Both the position numbers and the translations under genes were made by a program. Of a stretch of DNA of 64,000 bases, positions 17,095 to 56,241 are shown piece after piece. The stretch lies in the NCBI GenBank assembly GCA_964430735.1, contig CAYSFB010000002.1, positions 222,027-286,026 on the forward strand. Reading direction: 5' to 3'. Numbering within the stretch: the stretch's first letter is position 1; each line of letters begins with the position of its first letter. The stretch is from an uncultured Planctomycetia bacterium. Its GTDB lineage: Bacteria > Omnitrophota > Gorgyraeia > 2-02-FULL-51-18 > JAGOUK01. Below the pieces are notes generated by a model that saw only the letters and a list, made by a program, of their open reading frames with translations, was not told where the DNA came from and ran no database searches.

Positions 17095-17146
17095 ATGAAC
17101 CTCCGTTATTCTTTAATGCCTGATTTTTTAACCGCTTAAATTGGGT

Positions 17147-18027: not shown

Positions 18028-18098
18028 GACTTCCTTGGTTGAAGATAAATCCTAACGGAAATCTACATGACGCAGGGACCTGTTTCAAGACCGTCCCA

Positions 18099-18136
18099 AA
18101 ATAAAAACACCCCCGGGGTCGCCCCCGAGGGTGTTT
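18099..18136 (-). terminator. Rho-independent terminator after subunit gene A2
   Basis: Minus strand reads AAACACCCUCGGGGGCGACCCCGGGGGUGUUUUUAUUUUGGG: a GC-rich stem followed by a U-rich tract. It lies 43 nt after the A2 stop. Confidence 0.65.
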
Positions 18137-18178
18137 AAAGTTCCGGAGTTTTTCCGAAGAAAACCCCGAATCGACCGT

Positions 18179-18781: not shown

Positions 18782-18847
18782 TTCATTCCTCCTGGTGTAC
18801 TGACTAAGGTCCGTGACTGTTTAAAACAAACTTTTCCGAAACGGCCG

Positions 18848-20998: not shown

Positions 20999-21041
20999 GA
21001 CTACAACCTTACCTTGTAAAAGGCCGGCTTGCAAGGGAGGA

Positions 21042-37100: not shown

Positions 37101-40100
37101 GGACGGGCTCCTTCGCTGACTGGCCGGCAGGCGCGTGGGCGGCCTTGGCGGCCTCTTCGAGCACGCGCTTGTAGTCGGTCGGATAAACCTTGGTGAATTC
37201 CTTGGCGGCGGCGGGCCAGCGGCTCAGGATCCCCTGCGCGACCGTGCTGCCGGTGAGCTGGGCGTGCTTTTCGATCAGGCCTTTGAGCTTGTTCAGGTCC
37301 GCCGCTTCGACGACGGGAACGAGCTCGACCATGCCCTTGTTGCAGCGCTTCTCAAAAGACTTGTCCTTGTCCCAGATGTACGCGATGCCGCCCGACATGC
37401 CGGCCGCGAAGTTGCGGCCCGTGGGACCGATGACGACAACGGTGCCGCCGGTCATGTATTCGCAGCCGTGGTCGCCCACGCCCTCGACGACCGTTTCGAC
37501 GCCCGAGTTGCGGACCGCGAAGCGTTCGCCGGCAAGGCCGCGCGCGAACAACTCGCCCTGAATGCCGCCGTAAAGAACGACGTTGCCGACGATCATGTTG
37601 TTTTCGGGGATGTACCGGGCGTTGCGGTCCGGGGCGACGACGATGCGTCCGCCGGAAAGGCCCTTGCCCACGTAATCGTTGGCGTCACCTTCGAGCTTGA
37701 GCGTCACGCCGCGCGACAAAAACGCGCCGAAGCTCTGACCGGCCGAACCGCGGAACTGGATCTCGATCGTGCCTTCCGGCAGGCCCTTCATCCCGTATTT
37801 CTTGGCGATGTCGGAGCTTAGGATCGTGCCGACGGTGCGGTTCGTGTTCTGAATCTTAAATTCGGCTTTGACCGGCTTCTGATGCTCGATCGCATCCTTG
37901 CAGGCTTCGAGCAGCTGCATGTCGAGCGCCTTGTCGAGCCCATGGTCCTGGCGGCCGGTGTGGCGGATCGCGACGGTCGCAGGGACGTCGGGGCGGTGCA
38001 GGATCTTGGAAAGGTCGAGGTGCTTGGCCTTCCAATGATCGACGTCGTCGCGCTGCTCGAGCCAGTCGACGCGGCCGACCAGGTCTTCAAATTTGCGGAC
38101 GCCGAGCTCGGCCATGATCTCGCGGACTTCTTCGGCGAGGTACATGAAGTAATTGACGACGTGTTCGGGTTTGCCGGTGAACTTCTTGCGGAGTTCCGGG
38201 TCCTGGGTCGCGATACCGACCGAGCAGGTGTTCAAATGGCATTTGCGGAGCAGGATGCAGCCCGACACGACCAGTGCCGAGGTCGAAAAGCCGAATTCGT
38301 CCGCGCCGAGCATGGCGGCGACCACAATGTCGCGGCCGGTCTTGAGCTGGCCGTCGGTCTGCACGCGGATGCGGCCGCGCAGGTCGTTGAGCACGAGCAC
38401 CTGCTGGGCTTCGGCGATGCCGAGCTCCATCGGAAGGCCCGCGTGCTTGATCGACGTCTGGGGCGAAGCACCCGTGCCACCTTCGAAGCCCGAGATGAGT
38501 ACGTGGTCGGACTTGCCCTTGGACACGCCCGCGGCGATGGTGCCGACGCCGATCTCGGACACGAGCTTCACCGACACGTCGGCGTGGCGGTTGGAATTCT
38601 TGAGGTCGTGGATGAGCTGCGCCAGATCTTCGATCGAATAAATGTCATGGTGCGGCGGGGGCGAAATGAGGCCGACACCCGGAGTCGTGAGACGGGTTCC
38701 GGCGATTTCTTTGGAGACCTTGTGGCCGGGCAGCTGACCGCCTTCGCCGGGCTTGGCGCCCTGCGCCATCTTGATCTGCAGCTGGTCGGCGTTGACGAGG
38801 TATTCGATCGTCACGCCGAAACGGCCTTGCGCGACCTGCTTGATGCGGCTGCGGCGCCAGTCTCCGTTGGCGTCTTTTTGATAACGCGCCGGATCTTCGC
38901 CGCCCTCGCCCGTGTTCGAGAAGCCGCCGAGGCGGTTCATCGCGATCGCGAGCGTTTCGTGCATTTCTTTGGAGATGGAGCCGTAGGACATGGCGCCCGT
39001 GGCGAAGCGCTTCACGATCTCCTTGGCCGGCTCGACCTGGTCGATGGCGATCGGCTCGCCCTTCTTGAAACGCAGGAGGCCGCGGATCGTCGCGATGTTC
39101 TGGGAATAGTTGTTCAGGACGGCGGTGTACTTTTTGAACGTCTTGTATTCGCCCGAGCGCACGGCGTGCTGGAGCAGCGCGATCGACTCGGGGTTGTACA
39201 TGTGGTGTTCGCCGTCGCGGCGCCAATGGTAGCTGCCGCCTTCTTCGAGTTCGGTCGGTCCGCCCTGCGTGTGCGGGTAGGCGCGTTCGTGCTTCAGGAG
39301 CGCTTCGCGCGCGACTTCCTCGATGCCGATGCCGCCGATGCGGGTCGGGGTCGCGGTAAAGTATTTTTCGATGAGCTTTTCGCTCAATCCCACGGCTTCG
39401 AAGATCTGCGCGCCGCAATAGGATTGGATGGTCGAGATGCCCATCTTGGACGTGATCTTGAAGAGACCTTTGCGCGCGGCCTTGACGAAGTTTTTCTTGG
39501 CGTGGGCGTAGTCGAGTTCCTTGCCGTAGTGGCCGACCTTGATCTCGTGCTCGATCGTCTCGAGCGCGAGGTAGGGGTTCACGGCGTTGGCGCCGTAACC
39601 GATGAGCGTCGCGAAATGGTGCATTTCGCGCGCTTCGCCGGTCTCGACGACGAGCGACACGCGGGTGCGGGTCCCCTTGCGGATGAAGTGGTGGTGCAGG
39701 CCGGCGGTCGCCAGGAGCGACGGGATCGCGGCGTGGCGCGCGTCGACTCCGCGGTCGGACAGGATGAGGATGGTCGCGCCGCGGCGTACGGCGTCGTCCG
39801 CGTCCTTAAAAAGCTTTTCCATCGCCGGCTCGAGGCCCTTGGTCCCCTGGTCGGCGCGGAACACGGTCTCGAGGGTCGCGGACTTGAGGCCCGGCGCTTC
39901 GAATTCGCGGATTTGCTCGAGCTCTTCGCTCGTCACGACCGGCAGCGGCAGGCGCAGGCGCCGCGCGTGCTCGGCCGTTTCGTCGAGCGTGTTCTGCTCG
40001 GCGCCGAGCATGACGTCCGAACCCATGATGATTTCTTCGCGGATCGCGTCGACGGGCGGATTCGTGACCTGGGCAAAAAGTTGCTTGAAGTAGTTGAACA

Positions 40101-41646
40101 GCGGCTGCGGCAGCTTCGAGAGCACCGCCAGCGGCGTGTCGTGGCCCATGGAACCGGTGGCTTCTTCGCCCTCGGCCATGGGCTTGAGGATGATCTTCAG
40201 GTCCTCGAGCGTGTAGCCAAACGCCATCTGCTTGGCGGACAGGTCGGCGGGCGCCGTGTGGCGCAGGTGCTTGGGCTTCGGAAGGTTCTGGAGGTCGGTG
40301 ATGTTTTTCTCGACCCACTGCTTGTAGGGCTTGCGGGTCGCAACCTCGTGCTTGATCTCGGCGTCTTCGACGATGCGGCCTTCATGCGTGTCGACGAGGA
40401 ACATCTTGCCCGGCTGCAGACGGCCGCGCGACAGGACGCGCGTCGGTTCGATGGGCAGCACGCCCGATTCGGACGCCATGACGACGAGGTCGTCGTCGGT
40501 CACGAGCCAGCGCGAGGGTCTGAGGCCGTTGCGGTCCAGGATGGCGCCGATGTAGCGGCCGTCCGTGAACGCGATCGCCGCGGGACCGTCCCACGGCTCC
40601 ATGAGGCAGGAATGGTATTCGTAAAACGCCTTCTTGTCGGCGTCCATCGACTCGTGTCCGCTCCAGGCTTCGGGCACCATCATCATGACGGCGTGCGGCA
40701 GCGAACGGCCCGAAAGGACGAGCAGCTCCAGCGCGTTGTCGAAGATCGCCGAGTCGGAACCGGCGAGGTTGAGCGTCGGGATGACTTTTTTGAGATCGTC
40801 GCCGAACTTGTCGCTGACGAACTGCTTTTCGCGGGCGCGCATCCAGTTGATGTTGCCGCGGAGCGTGTTGATTTCGCCGTTGTGCGCGATCATCCGGTAG
40901 GGATGCGCGAGCGACCAGCTCGGGAAGGTGTTCGTGCTGTAACGCGAGTGGACGAGCGCGATCGCCGAGACCATGTCCTCGTCGGACAGGTCCGGGAAGA
41001 AGCGGTCGACCTGCGGCGAGGTCAACTGCCCCTTGTAAATGAGCGTCCGGGCCGAAAGGGAGCATATATAGAAGTAGTCCCGCTGGCCGAGATTGGACTC
41101 GAGCACCTTGAGCTCGACGCGGCGGCGGATGACGTAGAGCTTGCGCTCGAATTCGAGGTCGTCACGGACGTCTTTGCCGCGGCCGATGAAGATCTGGCGG
41201 AATTCGGGTTCGACGGAGTGGGCCACATAACCGATCTGCTTGGAATCGTGCGGCACTTCGCGCCAGCCGAGGAAGCGCTGGCCTTCTTCGTGGATGACTT
41301 CTTCGAGCCACTCTTCGATGAGGTTCTTCTCGTCCTGGCGGGTCGGCAGGAACACAAGGCCGACGCCGTACTGGCCTTCTTTGGGAAGTTCGATGTGAAG
41401 CTTGGCGGCTTCGCGGCGGAGGAACTTGTCGGGCATCTGGATGAGGATGCCGGCGCCGTCGCCGGTGTTCGGATCGCAGCCGCAGGCGCCGCGATGCTCG
41501 AGATTTTCGAGGATCTGCAGACCGGACCGGACGATGCTGTGCGACTTCTTGCCCTTCAAATGCGCGACAAAGCCGACGCCGCAAGCGTCGTGCTCGTAGT
41601 AGGGATCGTAAAGGCCTTGTTTGGGGGGAAGTCCTGCGCCGGTCAT
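37093..41646 (-). CDS. gltB: Glutamate synthase large subunit
   Basis: Start at MTGAGLPPKQGLYDPYYEHDACGVGF (Ntn amidotransferase Cys). The track ORF adds 17 upstream codons. FMN and 3Fe-4S domain motifs are present. It overlaps gltD by 8 nt. Confidence 0.9.
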   Translation of the reverse strand: MTGAGLPPKQGLYDPYYEHDACGVGFVAHLKGKKSHSIVRSGLQILENLEHRGACGCDPNTGDGAGILIQMPDKFLRREAAKLHIELPKEGQYGVGLVFLPTRQDEKNLIEEWLEEVIHEEGQRFLGWREVPHDSKQIGYVAHSVEPEFRQIFIGRGKDVRDDLEFERKLYVIRRRVELKVLESNLGQRDYFYICSLSARTLIYKGQLTSPQVDRFFPDLSDEDMVSAIALVHSRYSTNTFPSWSLAHPYRMIAHNGEINTLRGNINWMRAREKQFVSDKFGDDLKKVIPTLNLAGSDSAIFDNALELLVLSGRSLPHAVMMMVPEAWSGHESMDADKKAFYEYHSCLMEPWDGPAAIAFTDGRYIGAILDRNGLRPSRWLVTDDDLVVMASESGVLPIEPTRVLSRGRLQPGKMFLVDTHEGRIVEDAEIKHEVATRKPYKQWVEKNITDLQNLPKPKHLRHTAPADLSAKQMAFGYTLEDLKIILKPMAEGEEATGSMGHDTPLAVLSKLPQPLFNYFKQLFAQVTNPPVDAIREEIIMGSDVMLGAEQNTLDETAEHARRLRLPLPVVTSEELEQIREFEAPGLKSATLETVFRADQGTKGLEPAMEKLFKDADDAVRRGATILILSDRGVDARHAAIPSLLATAGLHHHFIRKGTRTRVSLVVETGEAREMHHFATLIGYGANAVNPYLALETIEHEIKVGHYGKELDYAHAKKNFVKAARKGLFKITSKMGISTIQSYCGAQIFEAVGLSEKLIEKYFTATPTRIGGIGIEEVAREALLKHERAYPHTQGGPTELEEGGSYHWRRDGEHHMYNPESIALLQHAVRSGEYKTFKKYTAVLNNYSQNIATIRGLLRFKKGEPIAIDQVEPAKEIVKRFATGAMSYGSISKEMHETLAIAMNRLGGFSNTGEGGEDPARYQKDANGDWRRSRIKQVAQGRFGVTIEYLVNADQLQIKMAQGAKPGEGGQLPGHKVSKEIAGTRLTTPGVGLISPPPHHDIYSIEDLAQLIHDLKNSNRHADVSVKLVSEIGVGTIAAGVSKGKSDHVLISGFEGGTGASPQTSIKHAGLPMELGIAEAQQVLVLNDLRGRIRVQTDGQLKTGRDIVVAAMLGADEFGFSTSALVVSGCILLRKCHLNTCSVGIATQDPELRKKFTGKPEHVVNYFMYLAEEVREIMAELGVRKFEDLVGRVDWLEQRDDVDHWKAKHLDLSKILHRPDVPATVAIRHTGRQDHGLDKALDMQLLEACKDAIEHQKPVKAEFKIQNTNRTVGTILSSDIAKKYGMKGLPEGTIEIQFRGSAGQSFGAFLSRGVTLKLEGDANDYVGKGLSGGRIVVAPDRNARYIPENNMIVGNVVLYGGIQGELFARGLAGERFAVRNSGVETVVEGVGDHGCEYMTGGTVVVIGPTGRNFAAGMSGGIAYIWDKDKSFEKRCNKGMVELVPVVEAADLNKLKGLIEKHAQLTGSTVAQGILSRWPAAAKEFTKVYPTDYKRVLEEAAKAAHAPAGQSAKEPVHG

Positions 41647-41756
41647 AGATAGTTTAAGTCTGTCATTACTCCTGAAAAAGCAGGCATGAAAAACCAATTT
41701 GATATGAGCGGGTTATTCTACACATCCCCGAGCCGCCGACGCAAGCAAAAAGCTCG

Positions 41757-41938
41757 TTAAAACCCCTGAACGATGCCCAGCAGCTCTTCGAGATCGACCG
41801 GCTTCATCAGAATGGACGAAGCCCCGAGCTGGCGGAACCGGTCGTTCATCCGGTCGTCCCGGTAAGCCGTCATCAGGATGTACCGCGCATCCGGCCGGAG
41901 CGCCGCCGCGCGTTCCAAAAAGGCGTCCACATGTGGTT
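41757..41938 (-). pseudogene. 3' remnant of a response-regulator receiver-domain gene, truncated at the boundary of the low-GC patch
   Basis: It translates to ...AALRPDARYILMTAYRDDRMNDRFRQLGASSILMKPVDLEELLGIVQGF*, the alpha3-beta4-alpha4-beta5-alpha5 half of a REC domain ending KP...eL. There is no N-terminal half. Upstream sequence from ~41940 abruptly turns AT-rich. Confidence 0.6.
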
Positions 41939-41977
41939 GTAGTAGATATGATTCTTTTTAAAAATTGAGATCTGGGG

Positions 41978-42427
41978 CTAGGATGATGGCTGGGTCGCGA
42001 GCCTTTGACGGAGAGAATCGGCCTTAGATTTGAGAGCCTTTTGGCGATCTTCGTTCATTGTGGCAATCGAGGCGTATTCGTAATTGTCAGCGGCGTTATT
42101 TAGATCGCCCATCTCTTCGTAGGTTTGGGCGATGTAATCGAGAGCAATGGCCTGCGCAGGTCTGATTAGTGCATATTTTTTAAGGGCTTCTGTGTAAGCG
42201 CTAATCGCCATTTCATATTCACCAGTCTTTCGATAAGCATCACCCTGATGTTTTAACTCCAGGAAGCGGTCGGCTTGTTCATAATTATTTCTAAAATGAC
42301 TGGTCTTTTGATTTAAGCCGGTCGGTAGATTGGATTTTTTGTCGTTAGTCTGACTTCCGCTTGTGTTGCACCCAGCAAGAGCGCATAACTGAATCAGAAG
42401 TAGTCCGTGTATCAACCGATTTTTCAT
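41978..42427 (-). CDS. TPR-repeat lipoprotein, 149 aa
   Basis: Lipobox LCALAGC. TPR-like helices (YRKTGEYEMAISAYTEALKKYA...). Low-GC codon usage. Confidence 0.6.
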   Translation of the reverse strand: MKNRLIHGLLLIQLCALAGCNTSGSQTNDKKSNLPTGLNQKTSHFRNNYEQADRFLELKHQGDAYRKTGEYEMAISAYTEALKKYALIRPAQAIALDYIAQTYEEMGDLNNAADNYEYASIATMNEDRQKALKSKADSLRQRLATQPSS

Positions 42428-42440
42428 ACTGCCCTCTTGA

Positions 42441-42650
42441 AACCGGACACCCTCCCCTCCTAGCTAAAAAGGGAGGGATTACTGGGGAAAGTACCCGGTT
42501 TATACTTGCGGGCCATGAGGAACTCTTTTCATTATTTATATCACAGTTCATGGGCCGCGAAGGCGGGAGCTGTCACAAAATACTGTTAAGACTAGGGCCT
42601 GACTGCTGACCGCTCCCTTTTTGGGTTACTGGGGAGGGCGCCTAGTTTAC
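42441..42650. repeat. ~210-bp direct repeat, copy 1, immediately upstream of TPR lipoprotein gene 1
   Basis: About 96% identical to 43311..43520. It contains the hairpin CCCTCCC-N14-GGGAGGG and an identical 24-codon ORF (MRNSFHYLYHSSWAAKAGAVTKYC) on the plus strand. Confidence 0.8.
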
Positions 42651-42755
42651 AGTATCCATTAATTATCAAATAATTTTCAATACTTAACTTTAGCTACAAT
42701 CTATTACTTGTGGTACTTGAGTCTTTGGCTACAAGATGTGGAATCAAGCCCAATT

Positions 42756-43253
42756 TTAAATTTGGTTTGACTCTTGAGCCGATACAGAAGATCTAGATTG
42801 GCTGATGGCTTTGATTTTAAGGGCAGAAATTTTTGATTCGTACTCGGGGCGGGCGTAATCTTTTGGAGGGGAGGACTCTAAATGTTCAATAGCCTTTCCA
42901 TAATCACCAATGGCTTCATAGGAGGCCGCCAATCCTCGATGCGCTTCCCAGGCAACTCCAGGAAAAGCAAGTAAGGTTTTATAGTGCTCAATTGCCTCGA
43001 ACCATCTTTCTTGCTGCTCAAGCTCCCTGCCCTTCCGAAGTGGGGCATTCTCTTCATGAGCGGCTTGGACTAACTGAGTGAGATTGGTGGCCTGCTTTTC
43101 CGACGCGCCGCCCACGATTAAATGACTTCCTTCACCTGTGCGAGCCACATTATTTCCAGAACCAACTGACTCGCGCATATTTTCTTCTGGCAGATGCAAT
43201 GTGCACCCCGACAAAATCGACACTAAAATTATGAACGTAAGTATTTGTCGCAT
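42756..43253 (-). CDS. TPR-like lipoprotein, 165 aa
   Basis: Lipobox ILSGC. TPR-like helices (WFEAIEHYKTLLAF, AASYEAIGDYGKAIEHL). Low-GC codon usage. Confidence 0.55.
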   Translation of the reverse strand: MRQILTFIILVSILSGCTLHLPEENMRESVGSGNNVARTGEGSHLIVGGASEKQATNLTQLVQAAHEENAPLRKGRELEQQERWFEAIEHYKTLLAFPGVAWEAHRGLAASYEAIGDYGKAIEHLESSPPKDYARPEYESKISALKIKAISQSRSSVSAQESNQI

Positions 43254-43310
43254 AGCTCATTGCACCTTATCGGGATCAAGAATATACCGTTTTGATTCAC
43301 TGTCGTAAGA

Positions 43311-43520
43311 AACGGGACGCCCTCCCCTTCTAGCTAAAAAGGGAGGGATTGCTGGGGAAAGTACCCGGTTTATACTTGCTGGCCATGAGGAACTCTTTTC
43401 ATTATTTATATCACAGTTCATGGGCCGCGAAGGCGGGAGCTGTCACAAAATACTGTTAAGACTAGGGCCTGACTGCTGACCGCTCCCTTTTTGGGTTACT
43501 GGGGAGGGCGTCTGGTTTAC
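43311..43520. repeat. ~210-bp direct repeat, copy 2, immediately upstream of TPR lipoprotein gene 2 and 4 nt downstream of the TolB-like gene
   Basis: Near-identical to 42441..42650. Confidence 0.8.
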
Positions 43521-43523
43521 GGC

Positions 43524-44558
43524 TTACTCGCTCCAGTGCGGGGTCTCGTCAGTAGCCCAGCCGCGGCCAGGATCTTTAGCGTGGCTCGGGAGCTTCTTGG
43601 CGGGAGTAATTTGGACTTCTTCGCCGGTTTCAAGGTTCAGGGCATAGAGCTCAGCCCCTGCATAGGGATAGATATGTCGATAGGATACATAGCAAATCCA
43701 TTTGCCATCCGGAGAAAAAACGGCATCCTGATCACTCCAGGGACCAAAAGTGACTTGTCTAGCGTCGCCTGATTCAAAATCATAGATGAATATTTTTGAC
43801 TGCTCATGTATACGCTCGCCTTGTTGGTTTAGGGGTGAGGCGTAGGCGAGTTTCTTGCCGTCCGGAGAGAATGCACCTCCATGAGCTGCTCTAGCAATAA
43901 GCCTGTTGTCAGTGCCATTAGATTTAATAGTCCAAACGCTGAACACTCCATATTCTTTCTCGCCCATCATTGCATATGACAATAGTCCTCTCGCATCGTT
44001 GAAGTTGAGCTGTGTAATTTGCCTGCTGCCGGGCATTGGTGTTAGGTTTGATATTTTAGTTAAATTATTGTCTTGTAAGTAATAGATGTTATCGCTTCCG
44101 CCGGCGGGTTCTGACGCATCAAAACGCACGACATACGCACCGCCGCGGGTCAAGATTGCTCTACTCCCATCAAGATAGTAATTTGCCTTCTCCGGCTGTC
44201 TCAAATCAACAACACCGAACTTGCGTCCGGATCTCACCAATACTTCATTGCCCCCTGAAGTCAAACGCGGTTGTTCGTACCCCCCAAATGCTCCGCCGAG
44301 GAAAGATGGGACCCCTTGTGGCATTGGGTTTTCAGAATCACTCTTGGATAAAACCTTCTTGATGGCACCTTTCTCGAAGAGCCACACTTCCCCCCTGCCC
44401 CCATCTCGATTAGAGATAAAAACAATTTTGCCAGAGAGCTCTGCCGCTCTCGAATCCACAGCTTCTTTGGGCAATCCTTTGATCTCGGACTTATCGCTCT
44501 TGGCACATCCCGCTGTAAAAAAAATGGCGACTGCCAAAACTACTCTTAAATAAATCAT
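43524..44558 (-). CDS. TolB-like beta-propeller lipoprotein (PD40/WD40-like repeats)
   Basis: Start at MIYLRVVLAVAIFFTAGC (lipobox), 4 nt after the stop of the giant gene. PD40-like repeats FSPDGKKLAYAS and FSPDGKWICYVS. Confidence 0.65.
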   Translation of the reverse strand: MIYLRVVLAVAIFFTAGCAKSDKSEIKGLPKEAVDSRAAELSGKIVFISNRDGGRGEVWLFEKGAIKKVLSKSDSENPMPQGVPSFLGGAFGGYEQPRLTSGGNEVLVRSGRKFGVVDLRQPEKANYYLDGSRAILTRGGAYVVRFDASEPAGGSDNIYYLQDNNLTKISNLTPMPGSRQITQLNFNDARGLLSYAMMGEKEYGVFSVWTIKSNGTDNRLIARAAHGGAFSPDGKKLAYASPLNQQGERIHEQSKIFIYDFESGDARQVTFGPWSDQDAVFSPDGKWICYVSYRHIYPYAGAELYALNLETGEEVQITPAKKLPSHAKDPGRGWATDETPHWSE

Positions 44559-44562
44559 ATGG

Positions 44563-47500
44563 TTAAGATCTCTCAGTTGACTCGATCCATTTATCAATAG
44601 CATGCTTGAGATCCACAGGACTTAACAACCCATCTTCTGCATAGGCGCTTAAGTCCACCTGAAGACTATCTCTGATTATATCAGTGACAACCTCACTACA
44701 GAATTTACGTAGAGCAGGGTCTCCGAATGCCTTGGTTCTTTCCGATAGGAGGTACGCCCACCAGTACGACTGACCTATGATGGGCTTTGAGGGGTCAGCA
44801 CTCACTAGGGCGCCGGGATAGTCATAGTTAAGAATGGTGTTGGGATGCATTGTTGATTCGTCTATATACGCTTTAGACAGGTGGGATTGTATTGTTCTTG
44901 CACTTTCAATATCGATCGGCAACTCCTGCACCTCAATATCTAAATACTTCCCGTGCCAGTCATCAAATGGCATCACAACAAGATCGGTCTGCAAATCAAC
45001 TCCCATTGACTGATTGACCTGTCTGCCCGTGTTCTGAACCTCAATGATATATGGCTTTCCGTCCGACGCTGCGAATAGCATCGCCGAATGGTTGTAACCC
45101 ACTGCGTCCCGCCCCGGGATCGTCGACCCTTGTCTGATCACAAGACCTGTTGCGTCTGCTCCAACCACATGAATAACGGCCACTTTGCCTTGGGCAGCAA
45201 GAGCCAATGCTTTTTGCACATGATCATTCTTATGCTGCTTGATCTCTGATTCGGTTCTGGCCCCGTATCGGTTCCAGATCTGATTGAATATCCTCTCGTA
45301 TGATTCGGATGCAGAGAGGCCGGCGTCTTTGATTTTTTGATTAACCACGGCTAATTTTGCTGCGGCGATTTCATTTGATGCGCTCAGGTTAAGCTTGATG
45401 CGGTCGCCAAGCTTTTCCCATTCGAGCCGAAGGCCGTCCAGGTCGCTTGCTTTGATATCGGCCTGTTCGATGATTACTTCTTCCGGAGCCACCGCCCTGA
45501 ATAGCGTGTTCTGCTTGGTGATATCGCCATCCGTGATCTTGATGTGAATATCATTGGATTCGATGTCCCAATCAAGCTCGTCTTGAGGCGATTCGCTGAC
45601 AATGCTTCCGTCGGATGACCAGGCTAGATCCGAGCCTGGCGTGAAGCGGACTTCTTGGGCTGCGCCGCCCGGGACTTGGGGTGGATGCTGCATCAGAATG
45701 TGGACGATAATTCCATTTGAGACTTGATAAGTTCTCCGCGTGCCGTCCGGATCCAGATAGACCGCCTCGCCCTCCCAAAGCCGCACTTGCCCGTCAGGAT
45801 CCAGCGTCATGACGCCGCTCAAGAGACGATTGGGGCCACTCAACTCCACGATCTTATCGGTCGCGAGATCGACCAGAATATACTCGTTCGCCGCTGAGTC
45901 CGGATTGATCGAGACTTTGCGGTAGTTCCGGCCTCCGATCTCAACGCGCGTGGCTGGATCGGTCAGCTGGTAATTGATGTAGCTTTTAATGGAGTCATAC
46001 GTCTCAAGAATCCTCTCCATCAATTGCTGGCGGAGAATTGTCGTCGCGTGTTGTTCGAGAACTTCCGCAAGACCCCCTTGGGTCTTAAGTACCAGGTCTG
46101 TGAAGAGCCTAATGCCGCTCAAGCCTTGAAAAGTTTCAGCGAACCGGATCGTGAATTGGGTTACGGAATCTTTAAGACCGTCGAACACCCTTGCAAAAAC
46201 ATTCCGCTGGTCGCCGGACCCGTTTTTTACAAGACCGCTGACGGCACCCAAAAATAGCTCGGAGCCGAGCGCGCTCTCGAAGGGATCAAGGCCTGCCGTC
46301 TCACCGACCTTGTCGAGACTGATTTGAACGAGCTTGGTTGCGATGGTCCGTAATCCGTCTTCGACCGATGCGATGGTGCCGCGGATGAGTCCTGCAGGAT
46401 CGAAGATTCCTCCGAAAACGCCTCCTGCGACTGAACCAACAATGCTCGTGATCCGAGGATCGAGTCCAATGGAGCTGCCGAGCTTGTTGATGCCATAGGC
46501 TGTGAGCTCCTGCGCCAAGAACGGCCGGATCGTCGTGAATATCTCTCCGATCTTCCCCTGCCATGCTCCGCCAGCGAGGGCTCCGGCTGTGACTGAGAGA
46601 ATGTCAGTCAAAGAGGAATCCATACCTGAGGCTGATAAGAGCGTCTTGGCTCCGGCCTGGACTGCACCCCTCAATCCCGCCTGCAGAAAAAGACTCGAGC
46701 TGAACCCCGTAGGCGAGATTCCGCCTAGGAAGCCTCCGGTCAAAAACCCTGTGAGGACGCTCGAGATGCCCGGGTTTACTCCAAGGGCATCCAGTCCCCT
46801 CTGCAGCCCGTAGTTCAACCCCACCGTGATGGCCGACTTAAACAATGACCCTGCGGTCAGACTATTCAAGCTCAGGCCAAAGAACCCGCCTTGAGTGGCC
46901 GGGGCGAAGAGACTGGTCAGCCCTCCTCCGAACAGATGCGTCCCTGCGAACTTAAGGCCCGTAAAAGCCGCCTTAGCGAGAGTCCCGATACCCTGGATCA
47001 CCCCGCCCAGGATCTGCCCCAGAGAGATGATGATGTTTCCGATGATAGCCCCGATCGAGGCGATGATGCCTCCGATGGCGGCAAGGATGCCTCCGATGGC
47101 GGCGGTGATGCTCGTGATGGCTCCGATGATGGCGGGGATGAGGAAGAAAAAGGCGCCTTTGATCTCCTTGGACTCTCGGACAGAGATCTTCTGGTTGGCC
47201 AAGGCCGGCGGCGCATGGGCATCCGGAAGCAGAGAGGTTCCTTGCCAGATCTTGAGGAATTCTTCTTTGGAGAGGACTTTGACTTCCCCGTTATCCAGGA
47301 AGGTGACTTCCGACTGCGTGGCTTTGACGAGATTCACATAGTGCTTGCCGTCGACGTGGAGGACGGGTCTGGCGGAGTCGTTGTTGAGCGAGAAGACCCT
47401 AAGGTCCTCATAAGTCAGCTTGAAGCCCGAAGCGGGCGCGCCGTAGAGAGCGGCGGTGCGGCTCATTGCGAAGAGACTCACGAGCATCTCTTCGCCGGGC

Positions 47501-50500
47501 TTAAGGAACGGGTGGATCTGACCGGTGAGGATGTCGACGAGGATCATCCGGGAAGCCAGCTCCGTGCGGTCGGACTCGGTAAAGGTCTGGCCGCGTGACT
47601 TTAAGAGCTCGATCAAGGGATCGATGGCGCTTTCTGCGAAGTGAAGGGATTGGGATTCCAGAAAGGCCTTGAGCTTGGCGACTTCCGAGGCGGTGAGGCT
47701 CACCGCTTCGGCCGACGTGAGGCCAAGCGATGTTAGAACGGCTTGGCGCTGAGAAGCGTCCAGCAGCGCGTCGAGGCGGCCGAAGATCGACTGAGTGATC
47801 GCGGCCTTGCGTGACGCGCGGCTCGTGCGCTCCGAAGACTGTGTGAGAGAAGTCCTCAGCGCCGAAGGTGCAGCAGCCTGCGTTTGAGCAGCAGCCAGCT
47901 CCGACGCGGACGGATCCCGACCCAGGATCTCGCGGTACACGTGGATCGTCACAGCCTTCTTCTCCTCGGTCCGGATCGAAACCTGGGATTTGGCGAACTC
48001 CGCGTCGAGATGCGCGAAGGCGCGGTCAAAGTCGGATTCGATCTGAAGCTTTTTTTGATCCAGCGCGGCAGAAAGCGCCGCCAGCTGACGGGACCTTTCC
48101 TCTTCGATCGCGGCCTTGGCCTCATCGATTTTGCGGATCACGTCACGGTAAGCGTCGAGCGTGGCGGACTTTTGCTTCTTTCCCGCGGAACCTTTGGCCT
48201 TTTGGCCTTCGAGCTCATTCAGGAGATTCTGATAGTGATTGCGCTGGTTGTTGAGATCCGCCTGCTGGAGATCGACCTGCGCCATAAAGTCCGACGTGAT
48301 GAGGGCCGCCTCCAGCGCCTGATCGGTGAGCGCTTCGAACTTTTGTCGCTCCGCCTGGATCTTCGCGTCAAAAAGCGCCTCGTCCAGCGCCCGGCGCTGG
48401 CCTTCGTTGCGGATCTCGACGAGCGCGTCCGACGCGTCGTAGACGTACTGCGTGAGCGTGTAGCCCTTTAAGTCATACACCGCGTCGATGCGGTCTGTGC
48501 CGGGAATATACGTCAGCACCGTCTTGTCCGCACGCGCGAGCGAAACCATCCGTCCGGCCGCGTCGTATGTCGAGACGATGGGCGTTTCGGCCTTGAGGGC
48601 CGAGCCGACCTGGGACTTCACCGCCTGCCAATTGACCTGACGGAAATTGAGATCGGTGTCATACACCAGCTTCGAACGGTCCAAGGGCGCTGCCCCTGAG
48701 GCGGCGGCATGCGTCTTCGTGAGCGTGAGAGCGGTCGAAGCTTTTTCCGCGCGGAGCTCGAATCCCGACGTGCCCAGGAGCGCTGACCGGCCGGCGGCGG
48801 CTTCGGCGAAGAACACACCCTCGAGCGACTTGGGATGGTTCAGGCGAACGGTCATCCTGTCGGGGCGCGCAGCGCCCTGCGGATAAACATACACTTCCGT
48901 GAAGTCGCCTTTGGCGAAAAATTCCACCGTGTACGGCTTGCCTGCCTCGTAGCGCATTCCGGTGGCGAACCAGCCGCTGCCGCTGTCGGCGCGGACCGTG
49001 CCGTCGGCGTCGAACTGAATGGCGATGCGGTGACTTGAGCCGTTGACAACGGTGAGGTCGTAACCAACAGTGAGACGCGATTGGGCTTCGACCTGGACGT
49101 CCGCCTTGCGCGCGAGCGCGTCAAAGAATGCGAGCTCATCCGCCGAATCTTCGGTAAGCGCCCGAACTCCGGAAGGCGCCTGACCCGGGGCGACGTCGAA
49201 CCGGGCCGTCAATGCCTGCTCGTACTCGTAACGCTTCATGACAGTCAAACGCGATGTCGGGATCACGCCCAGCATTTTGCGGACGCCCGGTTCGCCGATC
49301 ACGGTTTTTTCACCGTTCTTGCGCGCCACGTAATAAAACGGAAGGTCGTGCGAAGCGACGATCGTGCCGCCGCGTTCCATGTACTCGCGGGGGATATTCC
49401 GGGTCGAAATCGACAGCGGGCTCGAAGGATCGTAAACCGTCTCGGGCATCGCGCTCTGCAGCATCATGACCGCGGTCCCCTCTCCGCGCGTCGTGAAGAA
49501 TTCCTTGAGGTCCTGCGCCGAAAGGACCTTGAAGCCCTTCGCCGTGAGAATCTGCTTCATCATCAGAGCGAATCCGCCGCCCGTGCCGCCGTAGTATTCG
49601 GGATCGAAGTAAACGTACCGCTCGGACTCCTCCGCGTGCGAGGCCAGCGCGGCATAATCCGCCAAACGCGAAGGGTCGTTGTAGTAATTGGGGTCGTTTG
49701 CGCCGCCCCAGAGATAAACGAATCCCGAATCCGGATGCGCGGGAGAAAAATTCTTCTTCCATCCCGCCGCACCTCCGTCCGCCGACGCAAAAACCTCGAG
49801 CTCCGGCTCCTCCTCGAACTGGTACGCGGATCTCCATCCCGCGCCCGGAGCGTCCGCAAAATCGTCATAAGCGATCGAACGACCGGCGGCGTCGTAATAA
49901 CGGATGTCGCTCTTCACGTTCGAAAGAATCACGGCGCCTTCGCCGACGCGCTTCAGATCCTCGATGGCGCTGCCGGACATGCCGCCCTTGCGTCCGATCA
50001 TGGCGAAGCTGTCGCGATAACCGATCCCGCGGATCTTGGCGCTGCCCAGACTCTCGATCGCCTTCATAGCGCGCTCCGTCAGGTTCTTCGAACCTTCGTC
50101 CGCGACGGCCAGGGCCACGATATCCCCCGCCGGAACGCCTTCGATGAAGTCCGCCATCCGTTCGGCGTCCTGCGGACCGACGATGTAGGGATCGAACCAG
50201 TCTTTTTTGACCACTTTGCCGGACGCGTCCAGATGGACCAGCGCCCAGCCGCGCGTGAGGGAACGGTTCTGGGTCGACGTCTTTTCGATGTCAAAAGGGA
50301 TCAGGTCCTCGCCGTTCACCGTGATGGAAGCGTTCCATCCGTCCAGATAACCGTACGAGGCGACGCGCACGTCTGACGGGAGCCCGAGTCCCGCAACAGG
50401 CACGCGCTCGCTGTGGACGGAGCGGGTGTGCGTGATATTCCCCTGCGCGTCTTCGCGGAATCCGAAGTCAGTCGTGACACCCCTCGCGGCGTCCGTGATC

Positions 50501-53500
50501 CGCAGAAGACGCCCGGTCTTGTCGTATCGATAAACCTCGACGCCGCGCGTGACGTCGATGAAGGTGACGCGGCCGGCCGCGTCGCGCAGATATTTGGCGC
50601 GCGAGCCGTCGTCATGCGTCACTTCGTCGACAAGCCCTTCCTTGAGAAGCACGTTCTGATAACGGCCCGCGTCGGCCGCGACGTCGATCGACGTTCCGTC
50701 CTTGAGCAGGATCTTTTGGACGGTGTCGTCTTTGTAAAAAAGTGTCATGCCGTCGGCGGTCTTGGCCGAATAGAGCGCATGCTCCTCAAAAACCGCTCCC
50801 GCGTCGCCGGCGAGATCCGACTTCTTGTAGCGCAGCCCTTCAGCCGTCTCGATGAAGATCAGCTTGCCGGAAGGGTCGTAGATCTTGGCGAGTCCGGCCT
50901 CGTCGGTGATGCGCGTTTCGTTCCCCTCGTAGGAATAAGTAAACTTGGAAAGCTGCCGGCCCTTCCACGTCACGGCGGAGTGAGCGATCCGGTCGCCGTG
51001 CTCGGCGGTGTAACCGTAGGTCGTCAGAAGTCCCTCGGCGTCAGCGCTGGTGAGGAGCCGTCCCGCGTCGTATCGCTTCACCTCGTGTGTTTTGGCGTCC
51101 TCGATCACGGTGATCTCGCGGTCTCCCTCAAATTCGTAAGAGTAACGGTAAAGCGCCGCTCCGGTCTCGGACGCGACCTCGCGGATCTTCCCGTATTCGT
51201 ATCGCGTGATCGTGCGCGCTCCGCCCGCGGGACGCGTCGCCGTTTCCTTCACGCGGCCGTCGGCGTCGTAGACATACTCAGTCTCGGTGCCGTCCGCGGA
51301 CATCACACGGCTCGACCGCCCGTTCGCATACGCATAGGCCGACCCGTCCGCGCGCACGGAGCTGACCGCCTCGCCCGCCGTATTCACCGTCATCCGAATA
51401 TCCGCCGAACCCGGTGCGGAGACGCGGTTGAACGCGAGAGCCCTGGCCGGCCATCCGGAACCTCCGGGAAGCCGCGACAAAGACGGTTGACCCAGAACAT
51501 TCGCCGCATCCTGAGGCGTTAGAAAAAGCTCTGACTGATGCGCCTTGGCCTGCGCGGTATCCAGTTCAAAAAATCCCGCCTGCTCGACCTTGATCGTCCA
51601 CGTATCGGCCGCCTTTTGCGGCGGAATGAAGTCGATCGCCATGCTGAAAATGGGTGTCGTGACATCGCGGTCGACCGGAATGAGGACGGTCATGGGACCG
51701 CCAGTCACCTGCACTTCCCGGGCAAGTGCATCGAGCTCTGTGGCAGAACTGCCGAACGTCGGATGAATTCTCACAGTCGAGAGAAGCGGTGCGTTCTCCA
51801 CCCGCAGCTTGACGTAGATGTAACCGCCTTTTTTGACCTTCAAGTCCTGGAAATTGTCGAATTCGAACCGGACACCGGTCCGATCCGCAGCTGCGTTGAT
51901 CATCGTGGAGGAGATGATGATTTTGGATGCGGTATCGTCCTTCGGCTGGTTCAGATAAACTGCCTTGCCGGTCCCGTCGGCCAGCCGCACGCCGCTTTGA
52001 GAGTTGTATCGCGTCAGCAGGTTCCACCCGCCCTGCCCCTTCACCGGCCAATAGCCCGGATTCGCTCGTCCGTTGATCCAATCCACGAAGTCCACGCGCG
52101 CAAATCCGTAGTTGAATGCGGCCGCGCGCGTCACGAGGCCCGACGCGTCCCTGGCGAATTCAAAGGTCGTCAATTTGCCGTTCTCGGTGATGCTCGACAC
52201 CGTTCCGGATACATCGAACCGCACCTCCGTTCCGTCCGGCCGCAGTGTGCGTTCGAGCCGGCCTTCGGTGAGCGTGTGCAAGGTCCCGTCCTCGGTCAGG
52301 ATTTGACCGGAACGGAGCCTCCCCTCCGCATCCAAGACAGGATAAAAATAAGAGATACTGCCGTTCGAGACGGATTCGAGCCCGTTCTCGCCGTATGCGG
52401 CCGTGATCCCCTCGGCTTCGTAGCACACCAACCGCGACTGCGCATCGAAGGTCCGTTTTTCGAGGCCTTGCGCCGCATGCGTCTTGAGAATGCTGCCGTC
52501 GGGCGCAGTCTCATAAGTCAGGAGCGTCACCGTTCCGCCGGCGTCGATGCTCCGGACGAGCCGTCCGTTCTCAAAAAAGGTCTTTTCCCCGGACGCGGAA
52601 GACGCCTCGGTCAGGACTTTGTTCTCGAACCGGAGCTCCCAAGATACGCCCTGAGCGTCCCGCGCAAGCAACCGGTAGTCGTCCAGATCTCCCGACGCAT
52701 CGAACCCAAGTTCCGTGAGCATGTCGCCGTTTTCGCGCGTGATGCGGAACGGTTGTCCGGTCGCAGCGTCCAGTTCGACCATGTCTCCGGAAGCCGTGCG
52801 GTATTGCGTCAACACCATCTCATAACCGCCACTTCCGTTCGCCGCCGCTGCAATCGGATGATAGTCGTATTTGCGGCCGTCGGACATGCGCGTTTGAATG
52901 GGCTTCCCCAAATCGAAGCTCGTCACCGTTCCGTCGGGCTTGCGCTCTTCGACGGGCTGTCCGTCTTGATACCGGCGAACCGAGCCGTCCGGCAACCGCA
53001 CCGAAGCGTTCCGGATCTCCGTTCCGGACGCGCCGCCGAACACGATATTTTCGATGCGCGTGCCGTCGGCTTTTTCGACGCGGACCACTTTTTGGTCCTG
53101 ATAAAAAACCGTCTGCGCTTCCGCCGTGCCGGCGCCCGTCGTCACCGAACGGATCCCGCCCTGCGCGTCGTACGCCGTCTCAAGACCCGCGCGCTTCATC
53201 GTCATTCCGGCCAGATTCCCGTAAGCGCTTTCTTCAAATAAAAAGTCCGTCGTCCCCGACTGCCCGGTCGAGCGTTTGAGCAACCCGTCCTCAAATTCGG
53301 AGATGGAACCGTCCCTCAGGACCGTCCGCAGGATCTGCCCGTCGGCGTCATAGTCGGCGGAAAGAAGCTCGGGCAGACTGACGCCGGACAAGAGGGCGGC
53401 TGACGATGCGGCGGACGCAAGCGCCGTCCGCGCGGCGGCATCGGACGCGAGGACCGGCGCGGTCAAAGTCTTCGGATCGACCGACGCGACGTTCCTGGAT

Positions 53501-55827: not shown

Positions 55828-56241
55828 TTATTCCCAATCCACTCGCCGGCGGAGGGATTTTTTCTCACCGGTGTGGTGCTTGGAATCGAGCATCTTGTCC
55901 TTGGCGCGGCGGGAACGGCGGCGCTTTTGGCGGCGGATCTTGGACGCTTCCTGCTCGCGGCGGCTGCGCTCGCCCAGGATCTGGGATTCGATTTTGTCGA
56001 CGAGAATTCGGCGGGCGATGAAGCGGTTCATCTCGCGCGAGCGCTCCTGCTGGCATTTGACCGACAGGCCGGTTGGACGATGGACGAGCTGGACGCACGT
56101 CTCGACTTTGTTGACGTTCTGTCCGCCCTTACCGCCGGACCGGGTGAAGCTTTCTTCGAAGTCAGCGGGGCGCAGGCCCAACCGGGCCATCCGCGCTTCG
56201 AGTTCCGCGATCTTCGATGGAGAGATGAGGTAGTGGGACAT
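55828..56241 (-). CDS. arfB: Alternative ribosome-rescue factor ArfB (peptidyl-tRNA hydrolase, YaeJ-like)
   Basis: 137 aa. GGQ motif ([14 protein letters not shown]) and a basic C-terminal tail ([14 protein letters not shown]). Confidence 0.8.

What the first reader, a model, noticed from the sequence alone, without database searches (positions are those of the whole stretch)
41940..47300. Sharp GC-content break inside the giant gene, extending through three downstream lipoprotein genes and ending by truncating a response-regulator gene
From about 47.1-47.5 kb (near the C39-like and glycine-zipper region) down to 41.94 kb, GC content drops from ~65% to roughly 42-55%. This stretch covers the C-terminal ~850 codons of the giant protein, the TolB-like lipoprotein and both TPR lipoprotein genes. 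At 41.94 kb the AT-rich segment abuts the 3' half of a REC-domain gene, a pseudogene remnant. This is the signature of horizontal replacement of a C-terminal effector module together with its accessory or immunity genes, as in Rhs and CDI toxin loci. The small lipoproteins are immunity or chaperone candidates.
Basis: seen in the sequence. Interest (0 to 1): 0.8.

Follow-up and report, generated by a model that had tools for sequence, protein, structure and literature searches.

The report
Swappable toxin tip on giant protein
The AT-rich stretch is real and marks the exchangeable tail of a giant secreted protein plus its likely protection genes. This looks like a bacterial "polymorphic toxin" locus of an unusual build, found in an uncultured bacterium related to Planctomycetes and Omnitrophota.

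Summary
The GC drop is real. Background GC is 0.61±0.04, against 0.47 over 41.93-45.0 kb. Third-codon-position GC (GC3) falls from 0.76 to 0.63 to 0.50, and codon adaptation from 0.56 to 0.29.

Inside the giant gene the drop is graded, not sharp. It has two steps, at about 46.8 and 45.4 kb, and it starts in the glycine zipper, not at the C39-like domain. The left edge at about 41,930 is abrupt and cuts a receiver (REC) domain in half.

The closest orthologue, from a Planctomycetia metagenome-assembled genome (MAG), is 51-56% identical up to aa 3191. Beyond that it has an unrelated tail and mostly different downstream genes, with the same GC collapse. Relatives carry orphan tail cassettes and paralogues with swapped tails.

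The tail of the window protein folds as a permuted NlpC/P60 (YiiX-like) cysteine hydrolase, the fold of the T6SS toxin TseH. Only five homologues exist among 1.8 billion representative proteins. A TolB-like propeller gene follows this tail type in seven loci, so it is the likely cognate immunity gene. TPR149 looks like an orphan immunity gene.

The protein has no Rhs core and no CdiA hallmarks. This is a new variant of a known kind. Toxicity and immunity are untested.

The parts
44563..55572 (-). Giant gene, 3669 aa. It has a Sec signal peptide, scattered YD/RHS repeats, an ILEI domain (aa 1774-1864), a C39-like domain, a glycine zipper and a variable tail.
   Evidence: ORF listing. Pfam RHS_repeat 2.2e-20, ILEI 7.6e-22, Peptidase_C39 1.1e-3. 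TIGR01643 3e-10. The identical protein is on record in two Logan assemblies.
47221..47652 (-). C39-like domain (aa ~2641-2784) that lacks the catalytic cysteine. Conserved residues are Q2641, S2648 and H2744.
   Evidence: All 7 family members match PF03412 only at profile positions ~45-129, at 21-32 bits against a cut-off of 22. The alignment shows conserved QxLHFGxSA and HxxGxHY, and the protein has only two Cys, at aa 1050 and 3625.
47152..47187 (-). Conserved double-glycine-leader-like motif, I2796-A2807 (ISVRESKEIKGA), directly before F2808. This is a putative processing or recognition site.
   Evidence: The motif [IL][SN]xx[ES]x[KRQ]x[ILV][KQR]G[AG] followed by FF/FL is conserved in Planctomycetia and Omnitrophota members. 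Cleavage is inferred only. No Pfam GG-leader family matched.
46003..47151 (-). Glycine-zipper / hydrophobic domain (aa 2808-3190), the most conserved part of the family. It serves as the homology region for tail exchange and contains the invariant YGIxxLGxxxGLDPRI motif (aa ~3024-3042, around window 46,467).
   Evidence: 15.5% Gly, 16 GxxxG motifs, and a 60-aa hydrophobic run from aa ~2804 to 2865. Alignment A3. Identity to L004 is 0.6-0.84 up to aa ~3050 and 0.2-0.3 after. The first GC3 step is at 46,797.
44566..46002 (-). Variable C-terminal region (aa 3191-3669) with no counterpart in the closest orthologue.
   Evidence: tblastn homology to L001/L004 ends at aa 3191. GC3 0.565 and CAI 0.29-0.40.
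44566..45255 (-). Terminal permuted NlpC/P60 (YaeF/YiiX, peptidase C92-like) cysteine-hydrolase domain (aa 3440-3669). Invariant residues are H3468, H3495 and C3625. This is the putative toxin.
43524..44603 (-). TolB-like PD40 beta-propeller lipoprotein (359 aa, or 344 aa from the ATG at 44558, which lies 5 nt after the giant gene's stop). This is the candidate cognate immunity protein.
   Evidence: PD40 6.2e-13. TolB model only 41 bits against a cut-off of 343. Homologues lie directly after C92-like tails in L005, L012, L013 and L014, and after the distantly similar tails of L006/L007. GC3 0.47.
43309..43520 (+). MITE-like (miniature inverted-repeat transposable element) repeat, copy 2: 212 nt with ~36-nt imperfect terminal inverted repeats.
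   Evidence: 97% identical to copy 1. Logan contigs of this genome end here.
42756..43253 (-). TPR lipoprotein, 165 aa, bracketed by the two MITE-like copies. Candidate orphan immunity or accessory gene.
   Evidence: TPR Pfam hits and an LSGC lipobox. No homologue in any fetched locus. GC3 0.43.
42439..42650 (+). MITE-like repeat, copy 1.
   Evidence: Folds through its terminal repeats, z -3.9. No Rfam match.
41978..42427 (-). TPR lipoprotein, 149 aa. Probable orphan immunity gene.
   Evidence: 52.6% identical to the L004 TPR gene that directly follows an orphan tail cassette. LAGC lipobox. GC3 0.46.
41757..41930 (-). Response-regulator receiver-domain remnant (3' half only). The AT-rich segment ends at its truncation point.
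   Evidence: Response_reg profile positions 62-110 of 111, E 2.5e-5. Stop codon 10 codons upstream in frame. GC3 0.81.
37093..41697 (-). gltB (glutamate synthase large subunit), the host flank on the low-coordinate side.
   Evidence: Translation. Homologues carry GATase_2 and Glu_syn_central. GC3 0.85.
55828..56241 (-). arfB-like RF-1-domain gene, the host flank on the high-coordinate side. In the nearest relative it sits directly next to gltB.
   Evidence: Pfam RF-1 8.7e-25. 56% identical to the gene 181 bp upstream of gltB in L015.

Best explanation
The AT-rich segment (about 41,930-46,800) is the exchangeable end of a polymorphic-toxin-like locus.

What is shown:
- The giant Sec-exported YD-repeat protein has a conserved body and a conserved C39-like plus glycine-zipper region. 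Its last ~480-620 residues differ between orthologues and paralogues.
- In this genome the tail ends in a permuted NlpC/P60 (YiiX-like) Cys-His hydrolase fold.
- The gene right after it, effectively coupled to its stop codon, encodes a periplasmic TolB-like propeller lipoprotein. That gene accompanies this tail type across distant genomes.

What is inferred:
- The tail and its partner genes were acquired by recombination within the conserved glycine-zipper region (around the GLDPRI motif) from an AT-richer pool of cassettes shared among PVC-group bacteria (Planctomycetes-Verrucomicrobia-Chlamydiae).
- The far end of the replacement deleted the 5' half of a response-regulator gene.
- The hydrolase attacks envelope lipids or another acyl/amide bond in the periplasm of target cells.
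- The glycine zipper inserts into membranes and carries the hydrolase across.
- The propeller lipoprotein protects the producer.
- TPR149, and perhaps TPR165, are immunity genes left over from earlier cassettes.
For: Composition: GC, GC3 and codon-adaptation shifts with a permutation-tested change point. The left junction is abrupt and lies inside a half REC domain.

Orthologue L001/L004: 51-56% identical over aa 1-3191, then an unrelated tail and different neighbours.

GC pattern: it recurs in every locus of the family and is strongest in GC-rich hosts.

Orphan and duplicate modules:
- L005 has three tandem modules with identical glycine zippers and different tails and partners.
- L004 has an orphan 32% identical to the main gene's post-GLDPRI region, with an in-frame stop.
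- L009 has a second tail copy beside Y1-type transposase-like ORFs.
- L006 and L008 are 83% identical for 232 aa and then unrelated.

Partner gene: TolB-like genes directly follow the homologous tails in L005, L012, L013 and L014, at 28-37% identity. They also follow the distantly similar tails of L006/L007 (hhalign E 2.9e-4, with His and Cys aligned). Loci with clearly different tails (L004, L008, L009) lack them.

Literature: permuted NlpC/P60 effectors TseH and Tox-Act1 are periplasm-acting, lipid-targeting antibacterial toxins (PMC12994826). YiiX binds a fatty acid (PMC3142127).
Against: - No toxicity, immunity or cleavage has been measured.
- A 344-359-aa propeller is large for an immunity protein, and I know of no characterised precedent.
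- Two loci with homologous tails have other partners: a 109-aa membrane protein in L011 and a 228-aa protein beside P0008.
- The window itself has no orphan tail cassette.
- The nearest orthologue is distant (about 53% identity), and synonymous sites are saturated. The replacement cannot be dated or a donor named.
- The GC decline begins inside sequence that is still homologous to the orthologue.
- TPR149 is about as diverged from its L004 homologue as the gene body is. Part of the AT-rich tract may therefore be old rather than a recent import.
- No secretion machinery for crossing the outer membrane was found next to the gene.
Confidence: 0.7

Rival explanations
1. The tail is not a weapon against competitors. 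The giant protein is a surface adhesin or enzyme platform anchored by the C-terminal hydrophobic region. Its tail is a lipid- or envelope-remodelling enzyme that works together with the periplasmic TolB-like protein, for example in attachment to or feeding on host or prey cells, as proposed for Omnitrophota giant proteins. Tail variation would then reflect adaptation to different partners rather than toxin and immunity diversification.
For: Giant Omnitrophota proteins with ILEI domains, C-terminal C39-like domains and C-terminal transmembrane anchors have been described and read this way (bioRxiv 10.1101/2023.11.21.568195). The family occurs in Omnitrophota MAGs. The partner is a large propeller, unlike typical small immunity proteins. 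No dedicated toxin-export system lies nearby.
Against: Orphan tail fragments that lack a 5' end, one with a premature stop. Tandem modules with identical upstream homology. Strict pairing of tail type with the following gene. These are the signatures of toxin and immunity cassette exchange, and a housekeeping enzyme would not be expected to show them. The closest structural relatives with a known role in conflict are toxins.
Confidence: 0.15
2. There was no recent tail replacement. The whole 14.1-kb block between arfB and gltB (giant gene, lipoprotein genes, REC remnant) is one old genomic island. Its 3' end stays AT-rich for intrinsic reasons, such as weak expression, relaxed codon selection, or mutational bias in a hypervariable region.
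For: In the nearest relative (L015) arfB-like and gltB are 181 bp apart, so the whole block is an insertion relative to it. The body of the giant gene has slightly lower GC3 (0.755) than the host genes (0.78-0.87). The AT-rich tract includes TPR149, which is conserved in L004 at body-like divergence. GC3 already falls within the homologous glycine zipper in both genomes.
Against: The tail beyond aa 3191 is not homologous between orthologues, and the partner genes differ. A three-tier codon-adaptation pattern with an abrupt edge inside a truncated gene is hard to obtain without recombination. This account is also compatible with later tail swapping, so it complements the main explanation rather than replacing it.
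Confidence: 0.1
3. The AT-rich block was brought in or reshaped by a transposable element. On this reading the two MITE-like repeats and the truncated REC gene mark transposition events, not homologous cassette exchange.
For: Two 97%-identical 212-nt elements with terminal inverted repeats fill the intergenic spacers and bracket TPR165. Y1-type transposase genes sit next to tail modules in L009 and L011.
Against: The MITE-like copies lie inside the AT-rich block, not at its borders. No target-site duplication was seen. There is no transposase in the block. The right-hand border is a graded transition inside conserved coding sequence, which fits homologous recombination.
Confidence: 0.05

Closest known systems
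Rhs / YD-repeat polymorphic toxins (e.g. E. coli Rhs elements; Sec-exported 'T2SS-type' RHS toxins in the classification of Zhang et al. 2012, PMC3482391)
   Same: Large secreted protein with YD/RHS repeats. Conserved GC-rich body joined to an AT-rich variable C-terminal tip. Partner gene immediately downstream. Orphan tips in relatives. Exchange by recombination at a conserved junction.
   Different: There is no Rhs-associated core domain and no PxxxxDPxGL self-cleavage motif. There are only about nine scattered YDxxG motifs. No PAAR, VgrG or Tc partners were seen. The junction module is a Cys-less C39-like domain plus a ~380-aa glycine zipper with a GLDPRI motif.
CdiA-CT/CdiI contact-dependent inhibition systems
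   Same: Modular tail and immunity pairs. Orphan modules downstream. A conserved motif demarcates the variable region. A pre-toxin region probably serves membrane translocation.
   Different: There is no TPS domain, FHA repeats, CdiB partner or VENN motif. Export appears to depend on a Sec signal peptide.
TseH (Vibrio cholerae) and Tox-Act1 (Salmonella): permuted NlpC/P60 T6SS effectors. YaeF/YiiX family (peptidase C92).
   Different: Sequence identity is 11-20%, and the window domain has no Pfam match of its own. It has a ~20-residue insertion before the Cys. It is delivered as the tip of a 3669-aa protein, not by a T6SS. The candidate immunity protein is a beta-propeller.
Cdz glycine-zipper bacteriocins and class II bacteriocins processed by C39-peptidase ABC exporters (PMC5380434)
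   Same: A G[G/A]-ended leader-like motif directly precedes an extended, almost purely hydrophobic glycine zipper. A C39-type domain is associated with it.
   Different: Here all three elements are fused in one polypeptide, in the order C39-like, motif, zipper. The C39-like domain has no cysteine. There is no ABC transporter. The zipper carries a ~480-aa enzymatic tail. Cleavage is unproven.
Omnitrophota 'Dockerin-type' and C39-cluster giant proteins (bioRxiv 10.1101/2023.11.21.568195 and 10.64898/2026.06.07.730766)
   Same: ILEI domain, C-terminal C39-like domain, transmembrane segments near the C-terminus, PVC-group hosts. True homologues of the window protein occur in Omnitrophota MAGs (L006-L009).
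   Different: The passages I searched in those papers (keyword searches) interpret the proteins as surface-polymer-processing or predation machinery. They do not mention tail polymorphism, orphan cassettes or immunity-like partners.

Membership tests
Polymorphic toxin system (sensu Zhang et al. 2012) | Conserved N-terminal trafficking/repeat region joined to C-terminal domains that differ between homologues | tested here: met
   Window vs L004: 51-56% identity to aa 3191, unrelated after. L006 vs L008: 83% identity, then unrelated. Three different tails on identical zippers in L005.
Polymorphic toxin system (sensu Zhang et al. 2012) | Partner (immunity) gene immediately downstream that co-varies with the tail type | tested here: met
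   A TolB-like gene follows the C92-like tail in the window, L005, L012, L013 and L014, and follows the distantly similar tails of L006/L007. Other tails have other partners. Exceptions are L011 and the P0008 contig. Only co-occurrence was tested, not neutralisation.
Polymorphic toxin system (sensu Zhang et al. 2012) | Stand-alone or orphan tail cassettes near the main gene | tested here: inconclusive
   Present in relatives (L005, L004, L009). No orphan tail is present in the window, which has only candidate orphan immunity genes (TPR149, TPR165).
Polymorphic toxin system (sensu Zhang et al. 2012) | The tail is toxic and is neutralised by the cognate partner | not testable with these tools
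   Needs expression and rescue experiments.
Rhs toxins | YD/RHS repeats | tested here: met
   PF05593 2.2e-20. TIGR01643 3e-10. Nine YDxxG motifs.
Rhs toxins | Rhs-associated core domain with the PxxxxDPxGL aspartyl self-cleavage motif before the tail | tested here: not met
   No NCBIfam core-domain hit. No PxxxxDPxG match, and a single unrelated DPAGL at aa 3058.
CdiA (CDI) | TPS/FHA architecture with a VENN (or equivalent) pre-toxin motif and a CdiB partner | tested here: not met
   No haemagglutinin or TPS Pfam hits. No VENN or [VL]ENN. Flanking genes are housekeeping genes.
Peptidase C39 (bacteriocin-processing) | Sequence match to PF03412 | tested here: inconclusive
   23 bits against a cut-off of 22 when scanned as a fragment, but only profile positions 46-129 of 133 match. 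This holds for all 7 family members.
Peptidase C39 (bacteriocin-processing) | Catalytic cysteine near the N-terminus of the domain | tested here: not met
   The whole protein has Cys only at aa 1050 and 3625. The expected region reads QSLHFAESA, with an invariant Ser.
Peptidase C39 (bacteriocin-processing) | Cleavage after a double-glycine-type leader | not testable with these tools
   A conserved leader-like motif ending in G[AG] sits 20 residues after the domain. No leader-family HMM matched. Cleavage needs protein chemistry.
Permuted NlpC/P60, YaeF/YiiX family (peptidase C92) | Papain-like fold with circular permutation, catalytic His preceding Cys | tested here: met
Permuted NlpC/P60, YaeF/YiiX family (peptidase C92) | Sequence match to PF05708 | tested here: inconclusive
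   The window domain has no hit. The L002 homologue hits at E 4.9e-4.
TolB (Tol-Pal system) | Full-length match including the N-terminal TolA-binding domain | tested here: not met
   TIGR02800 scores 41 bits against a cut-off of 343, and only propeller blades aa 240-332 match. It is a TolB-like PD40 propeller, not TolB.
MITE (miniature inverted-repeat transposable element) | Short non-coding element with terminal inverted repeats, several copies and target-site duplications | tested here: inconclusive
   212 nt. Terminal inverted repeats of 36 nt at 72-78% complementarity. Two copies at 97% identity. No clear target duplication. No further copies in the window or in JGI metagenomes.

The most novel reading that the evidence does not exclude
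This could be a previously unrecognised delivery design for polymorphic toxins in PVC-group bacteria. On this reading a Sec-exported giant carrier contains, in cis, a cysteine-less C39-like domain. That domain recognises, and perhaps cuts with Ser2648/His2744, an internal double-glycine-type motif. This releases a ~860-aa glycine-zipper translocator fused to interchangeable enzymatic tips. Periplasmic beta-propeller lipoproteins would serve as a new class of immunity protein. It would amount to a bacteriocin leader/C39 processing system fused into one polypeptide. It would also re-read part of the 'giant proteins' of Omnitrophota and Planctomycetes as toxin carriers.
Probability: 0.2. Interest if true: 0.75.

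Novelty: new variant of a known kind. Interest (0 to 1): 0.55.

Why it matters
Polymorphic toxins are well studied in Proteobacteria and Firmicutes but hardly at all in Planctomycetes and Omnitrophota. In those groups giant surface proteins are abundant and their roles are debated.

This locus gives a concrete, testable case with four parts:
- a defined exchange junction,
- a very rare permuted NlpC/P60 tip (five relatives among 1.8 billion representative proteins),
- a candidate propeller-type immunity protein,
- a C39-like domain, GG motif and glycine-zipper module that may explain how the tip is released and crosses membranes.

It also shows that a compositional break inside a gene can locate such cassettes in uncultured lineages.

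Tried and rejected
Searches and computations that gave nothing usable:
- A homology search with the full 3669-aa protein timed out.
- A single-sequence AF2 model of the last 440 aa was unusable, pLDDT 37. It was replaced by an alignment-based model of the last 230 aa.
- A profile search of the word-indexed protein database with the tail alignment found nothing.
- JGI metagenome scans found no family member and no MITE copy.
- Rfam found nothing in 41.5-45 kb.
- Sequence searches of the PDB with the tail profile and with the C39-like region gave only noise.
- The AFDB Foldseek library was unavailable.
- The AT-rich block has no DNA match in plasmid or phage collections.
- Pfam scans of the motif and zipper region found no bacteriocin-leader family, only sub-threshold hits to hydrophobic regions.

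Ideas I rejected:
- Membership in Rhs or CdiA proper, because defining features are absent.
- The REC remnant being orthologous to the response regulator downstream of the L001 locus. Identity is only 29% over 51 aa.
- Recent exchange of the glycine zipper between the window and L004. Third-position identity is at saturation.
- TPR165 and TPR149 being recent duplicates. They share 26% identity over 43 aa.
- The other low-GC spots in the window (10.8-11.3 kb and 17.0-17.3 kb) being related. They are intergenic spacers among small secreted-protein genes.

Full report
**Observation**

The window averages 60% GC. 500-bp windows outside 41.7-47.5 kb have a mean of 0.609 (sd 0.039). Windows in 41,930-45,000 have a mean of 0.472 and never exceed 0.514.

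The shift is carried by third codon positions (GC3). Eleven host genes have GC3 of 0.78-0.87. Giant-gene codons 1-2900 have 0.755, codons 2901-3190 have 0.628, and codons 3191-3669 have 0.565. The TolB-like gene has 0.47, TPR165 0.43 and TPR149 0.46. Codon adaptation to the window's own genes falls in three tiers: 0.56, then 0.40, then 0.28-0.30.

A likelihood change-point scan places the single best break at codon 2959 (window 46,695). Its log-likelihood ratio is 42, against a maximum of 10.8 in 200 permutations. A two-step model places breaks at codons 2925 (46,797) and 3395 (45,387). So the decline inside the gene is graded.

The other border is abrupt, at 41,930-41,940.

**Gene content**

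- The giant ORF (55572 to 44563, minus strand) encodes 3669 aa. It has a signal peptide, RHS/YD repeats, an ILEI domain and a weak C39 match.
- Three lipoprotein genes follow. These are a PD40 propeller that resembles TolB only in its blades, and two TPR proteins.
- The two spacers between these genes are almost entirely filled by two 97%-identical 212-nt elements with imperfect terminal inverted repeats. Short-read assemblies of the same genome break exactly there.
- The 57-codon ORF at 41757-41930 matches only the second half of the receiver-domain profile. It has host-like GC3 (0.81) and is preceded in frame by a stop and unrelated AT-rich sequence.
- gltB follows.

**Comparative test**

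The word-indexed search with the last 870 aa found two relatives. Both align only over the glycine zipper and then diverge.

The first relative, L001/L004, is from an uncultured Planctomycetia MAG with about 65% GC. It is the orthologue: 51% identical over aa 1-2165 and 56% over aa 2182-3191, and unrelated thereafter. Apart from one TPR gene, discussed under the partner genes below, its downstream genes differ. Sliding-window identity drops from 0.6-0.84 to 0.2-0.3 just after an invariant YGIxxLGxxxGLDPRI motif at about aa 3040. That genome shows the same GC3 collapse, 0.82 to 0.55 to 0.51 to 0.38.

The second relative (L002/L005 plus L010) is from a Planctomycetia MAG with about 46% GC. Its main gene is broken across contig ends. 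Its tail is homologous to the window's, 23% identical over aa 3067-3666, and is followed by a TolB-like gene. Two further modules follow. They have near-identical glycine zippers but different tails and different partner genes.

Further evidence from other loci:
- Omnitrophota MAGs carry true homologues.
- Within one of those MAGs, paralogues are 83% identical for 232 residues and then unrelated.
- L004 has an orphan tail lacking its 5' part and carrying an in-frame stop.
- L009 has a second tail copy beside Y1-type transposase-like ORFs.
- In every locus the tail and the following gene are AT-richer than the gene body.

**The tail**

An exhaustive HMMER scan of 1.84 billion representative proteins found only five homologues, at 29-34% identity. 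They share a domain of about 190 aa with invariant His (VNHS) and, further on, Cys (FCSE).

This is the permuted NlpC/P60 group, whose members bind or cleave lipid acyl chains (PMC3142127). Its conflict-system members, TseH and Tox-Act1, are periplasm-acting phospholipid-degrading toxins (PMC12994826). Only the L002 homologue reaches Pfam PF05708 (E 4.9e-4).

**Partner genes**

TolB-like genes sit directly after the homologous tails in L005 (28% identity), L012 (37.5%), L013 (partial) and L014 (32%). They also sit after the L006/L007 tails. Those tails align to the tail profile with His and Cys in register (hhalign E 2.9e-4, probability 41%).

Loci with other tails have other partners. Two loci with homologous tails also have other partners. 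All the propellers carry signal peptides or anchors, which is consistent with a periplasmic site of action.

TPR149 is 52.6% identical to the L004 TPR gene that directly follows the orphan tail there. It is best read as an orphan immunity gene. TPR165 has no detectable relative.

**The junction module**

All seven family members match the C39 profile only from position ~45 onward. The protein has no cysteine in this region. The conserved residues are Q2641, S2648 and H2744.

Twenty residues after the domain, a motif conserved from Planctomycetia to Omnitrophota fits six of the seven consensus positions of double-glycine leaders (LSxxELxxIxGG, consensus from my own knowledge). The motif is [IL][SN]xx[ES]x[KRQ]x[ILV][KQR]G[AG]. 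It is immediately followed by a 60-residue hydrophobic glycine zipper.

This parallels leader-processed glycine-zipper bacteriocins such as Cdz (PMC5380434). It also parallels the role of glycine zippers in toxin translocation (PMC10240207). Processing here is inference only. No leader-family model matched.

**Wider context**

The nearest GltB relative (76% identity) has an arfB-like gene 181 bp upstream of gltB. The window's arfB-like gene is 56% identical to it and lies just upstream of the giant gene. The whole 14.1-kb block therefore looks like an insertion relative to that genome. The AT-rich end would be its most recently or most frequently exchanged part. No close relative (above 80% identity) of this organism was found, so events cannot be dated and no donor can be named.

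**Verdict**

- The system works like Rhs and CDI loci but is not a member of either family. The Rhs core and the VENN/TPS features were tested and are absent.
- I rate it a new variant of a known kind, of moderate interest. The C39-like/GG-motif/glycine-zipper junction and the propeller immunity candidate are the parts most worth experiments.

Noticed in passing
window 42439-42650 and 43309-43520: Two 97%-identical 212-nt MITE-like elements with ~36-nt imperfect terminal inverted repeats, in direct orientation, bracket the TPR165 gene and fill both intergenic spacers. They fold as long hairpins (z -3.9). They have no Rfam match and no copies elsewhere in the window or in JGI metagenomes. Short-read assemblies of this genome break at them.
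   Followed up: partly
window 55828-56241 and 37093-41697; locus L015 2-394 and 575-2392: In the nearest relative found (GltB 76% identical), the arfB-like RF-1-domain gene and gltB are 181 bp apart. In the window they are separated by the 14.1-kb block holding the giant gene, the lipoprotein genes and the REC remnant. The whole locus therefore looks like an insertion.
   Followed up: partly
window 16495-19480 (minus strand), 11253-11762 (+), 19613-21034 (-): A cluster of four paralogous ~200-aa secreted proteins, plus a 169-aa and a 473-aa secreted protein. None has a Pfam match. They are separated by low-GC spacers, which account for the other GC dips in the window at 10.8-11.3 and 17.0-17.3 kb.
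   Followed up: partly
L009 9137-9721, 9725-11059, 12043-12714; L011 8183-8800: REP/IS200-type (Y1) transposase-like genes sit beside tail modules in two relatives. In L009 they flank a second copy of the tail, 30% identical to the main one.
   Followed up: no
L002/L005 8298-9845: The third tail in the Planctomycetia MAG gives a sub-threshold match to the Pre-toxin TG domain (PF14449, E 0.014), a domain typical of polymorphic toxins.
   Followed up: no
L001 21175-23268: In the orthologous locus the AT-rich tract runs for about 10 kb and ends inside a histidine-kinase gene that precedes a response regulator. This resembles the window, where the tract ends inside a response-regulator remnant. 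However, the two receiver domains are only 29% identical.
   Followed up: partly
window 47800-47950 and the equivalent region in L006-L008: A DUF4214-type segment (YR.ILGRDP...E) precedes the C39-like domain in all family members. It reaches Pfam significance only in the Omnitrophota copies.
   Followed up: no
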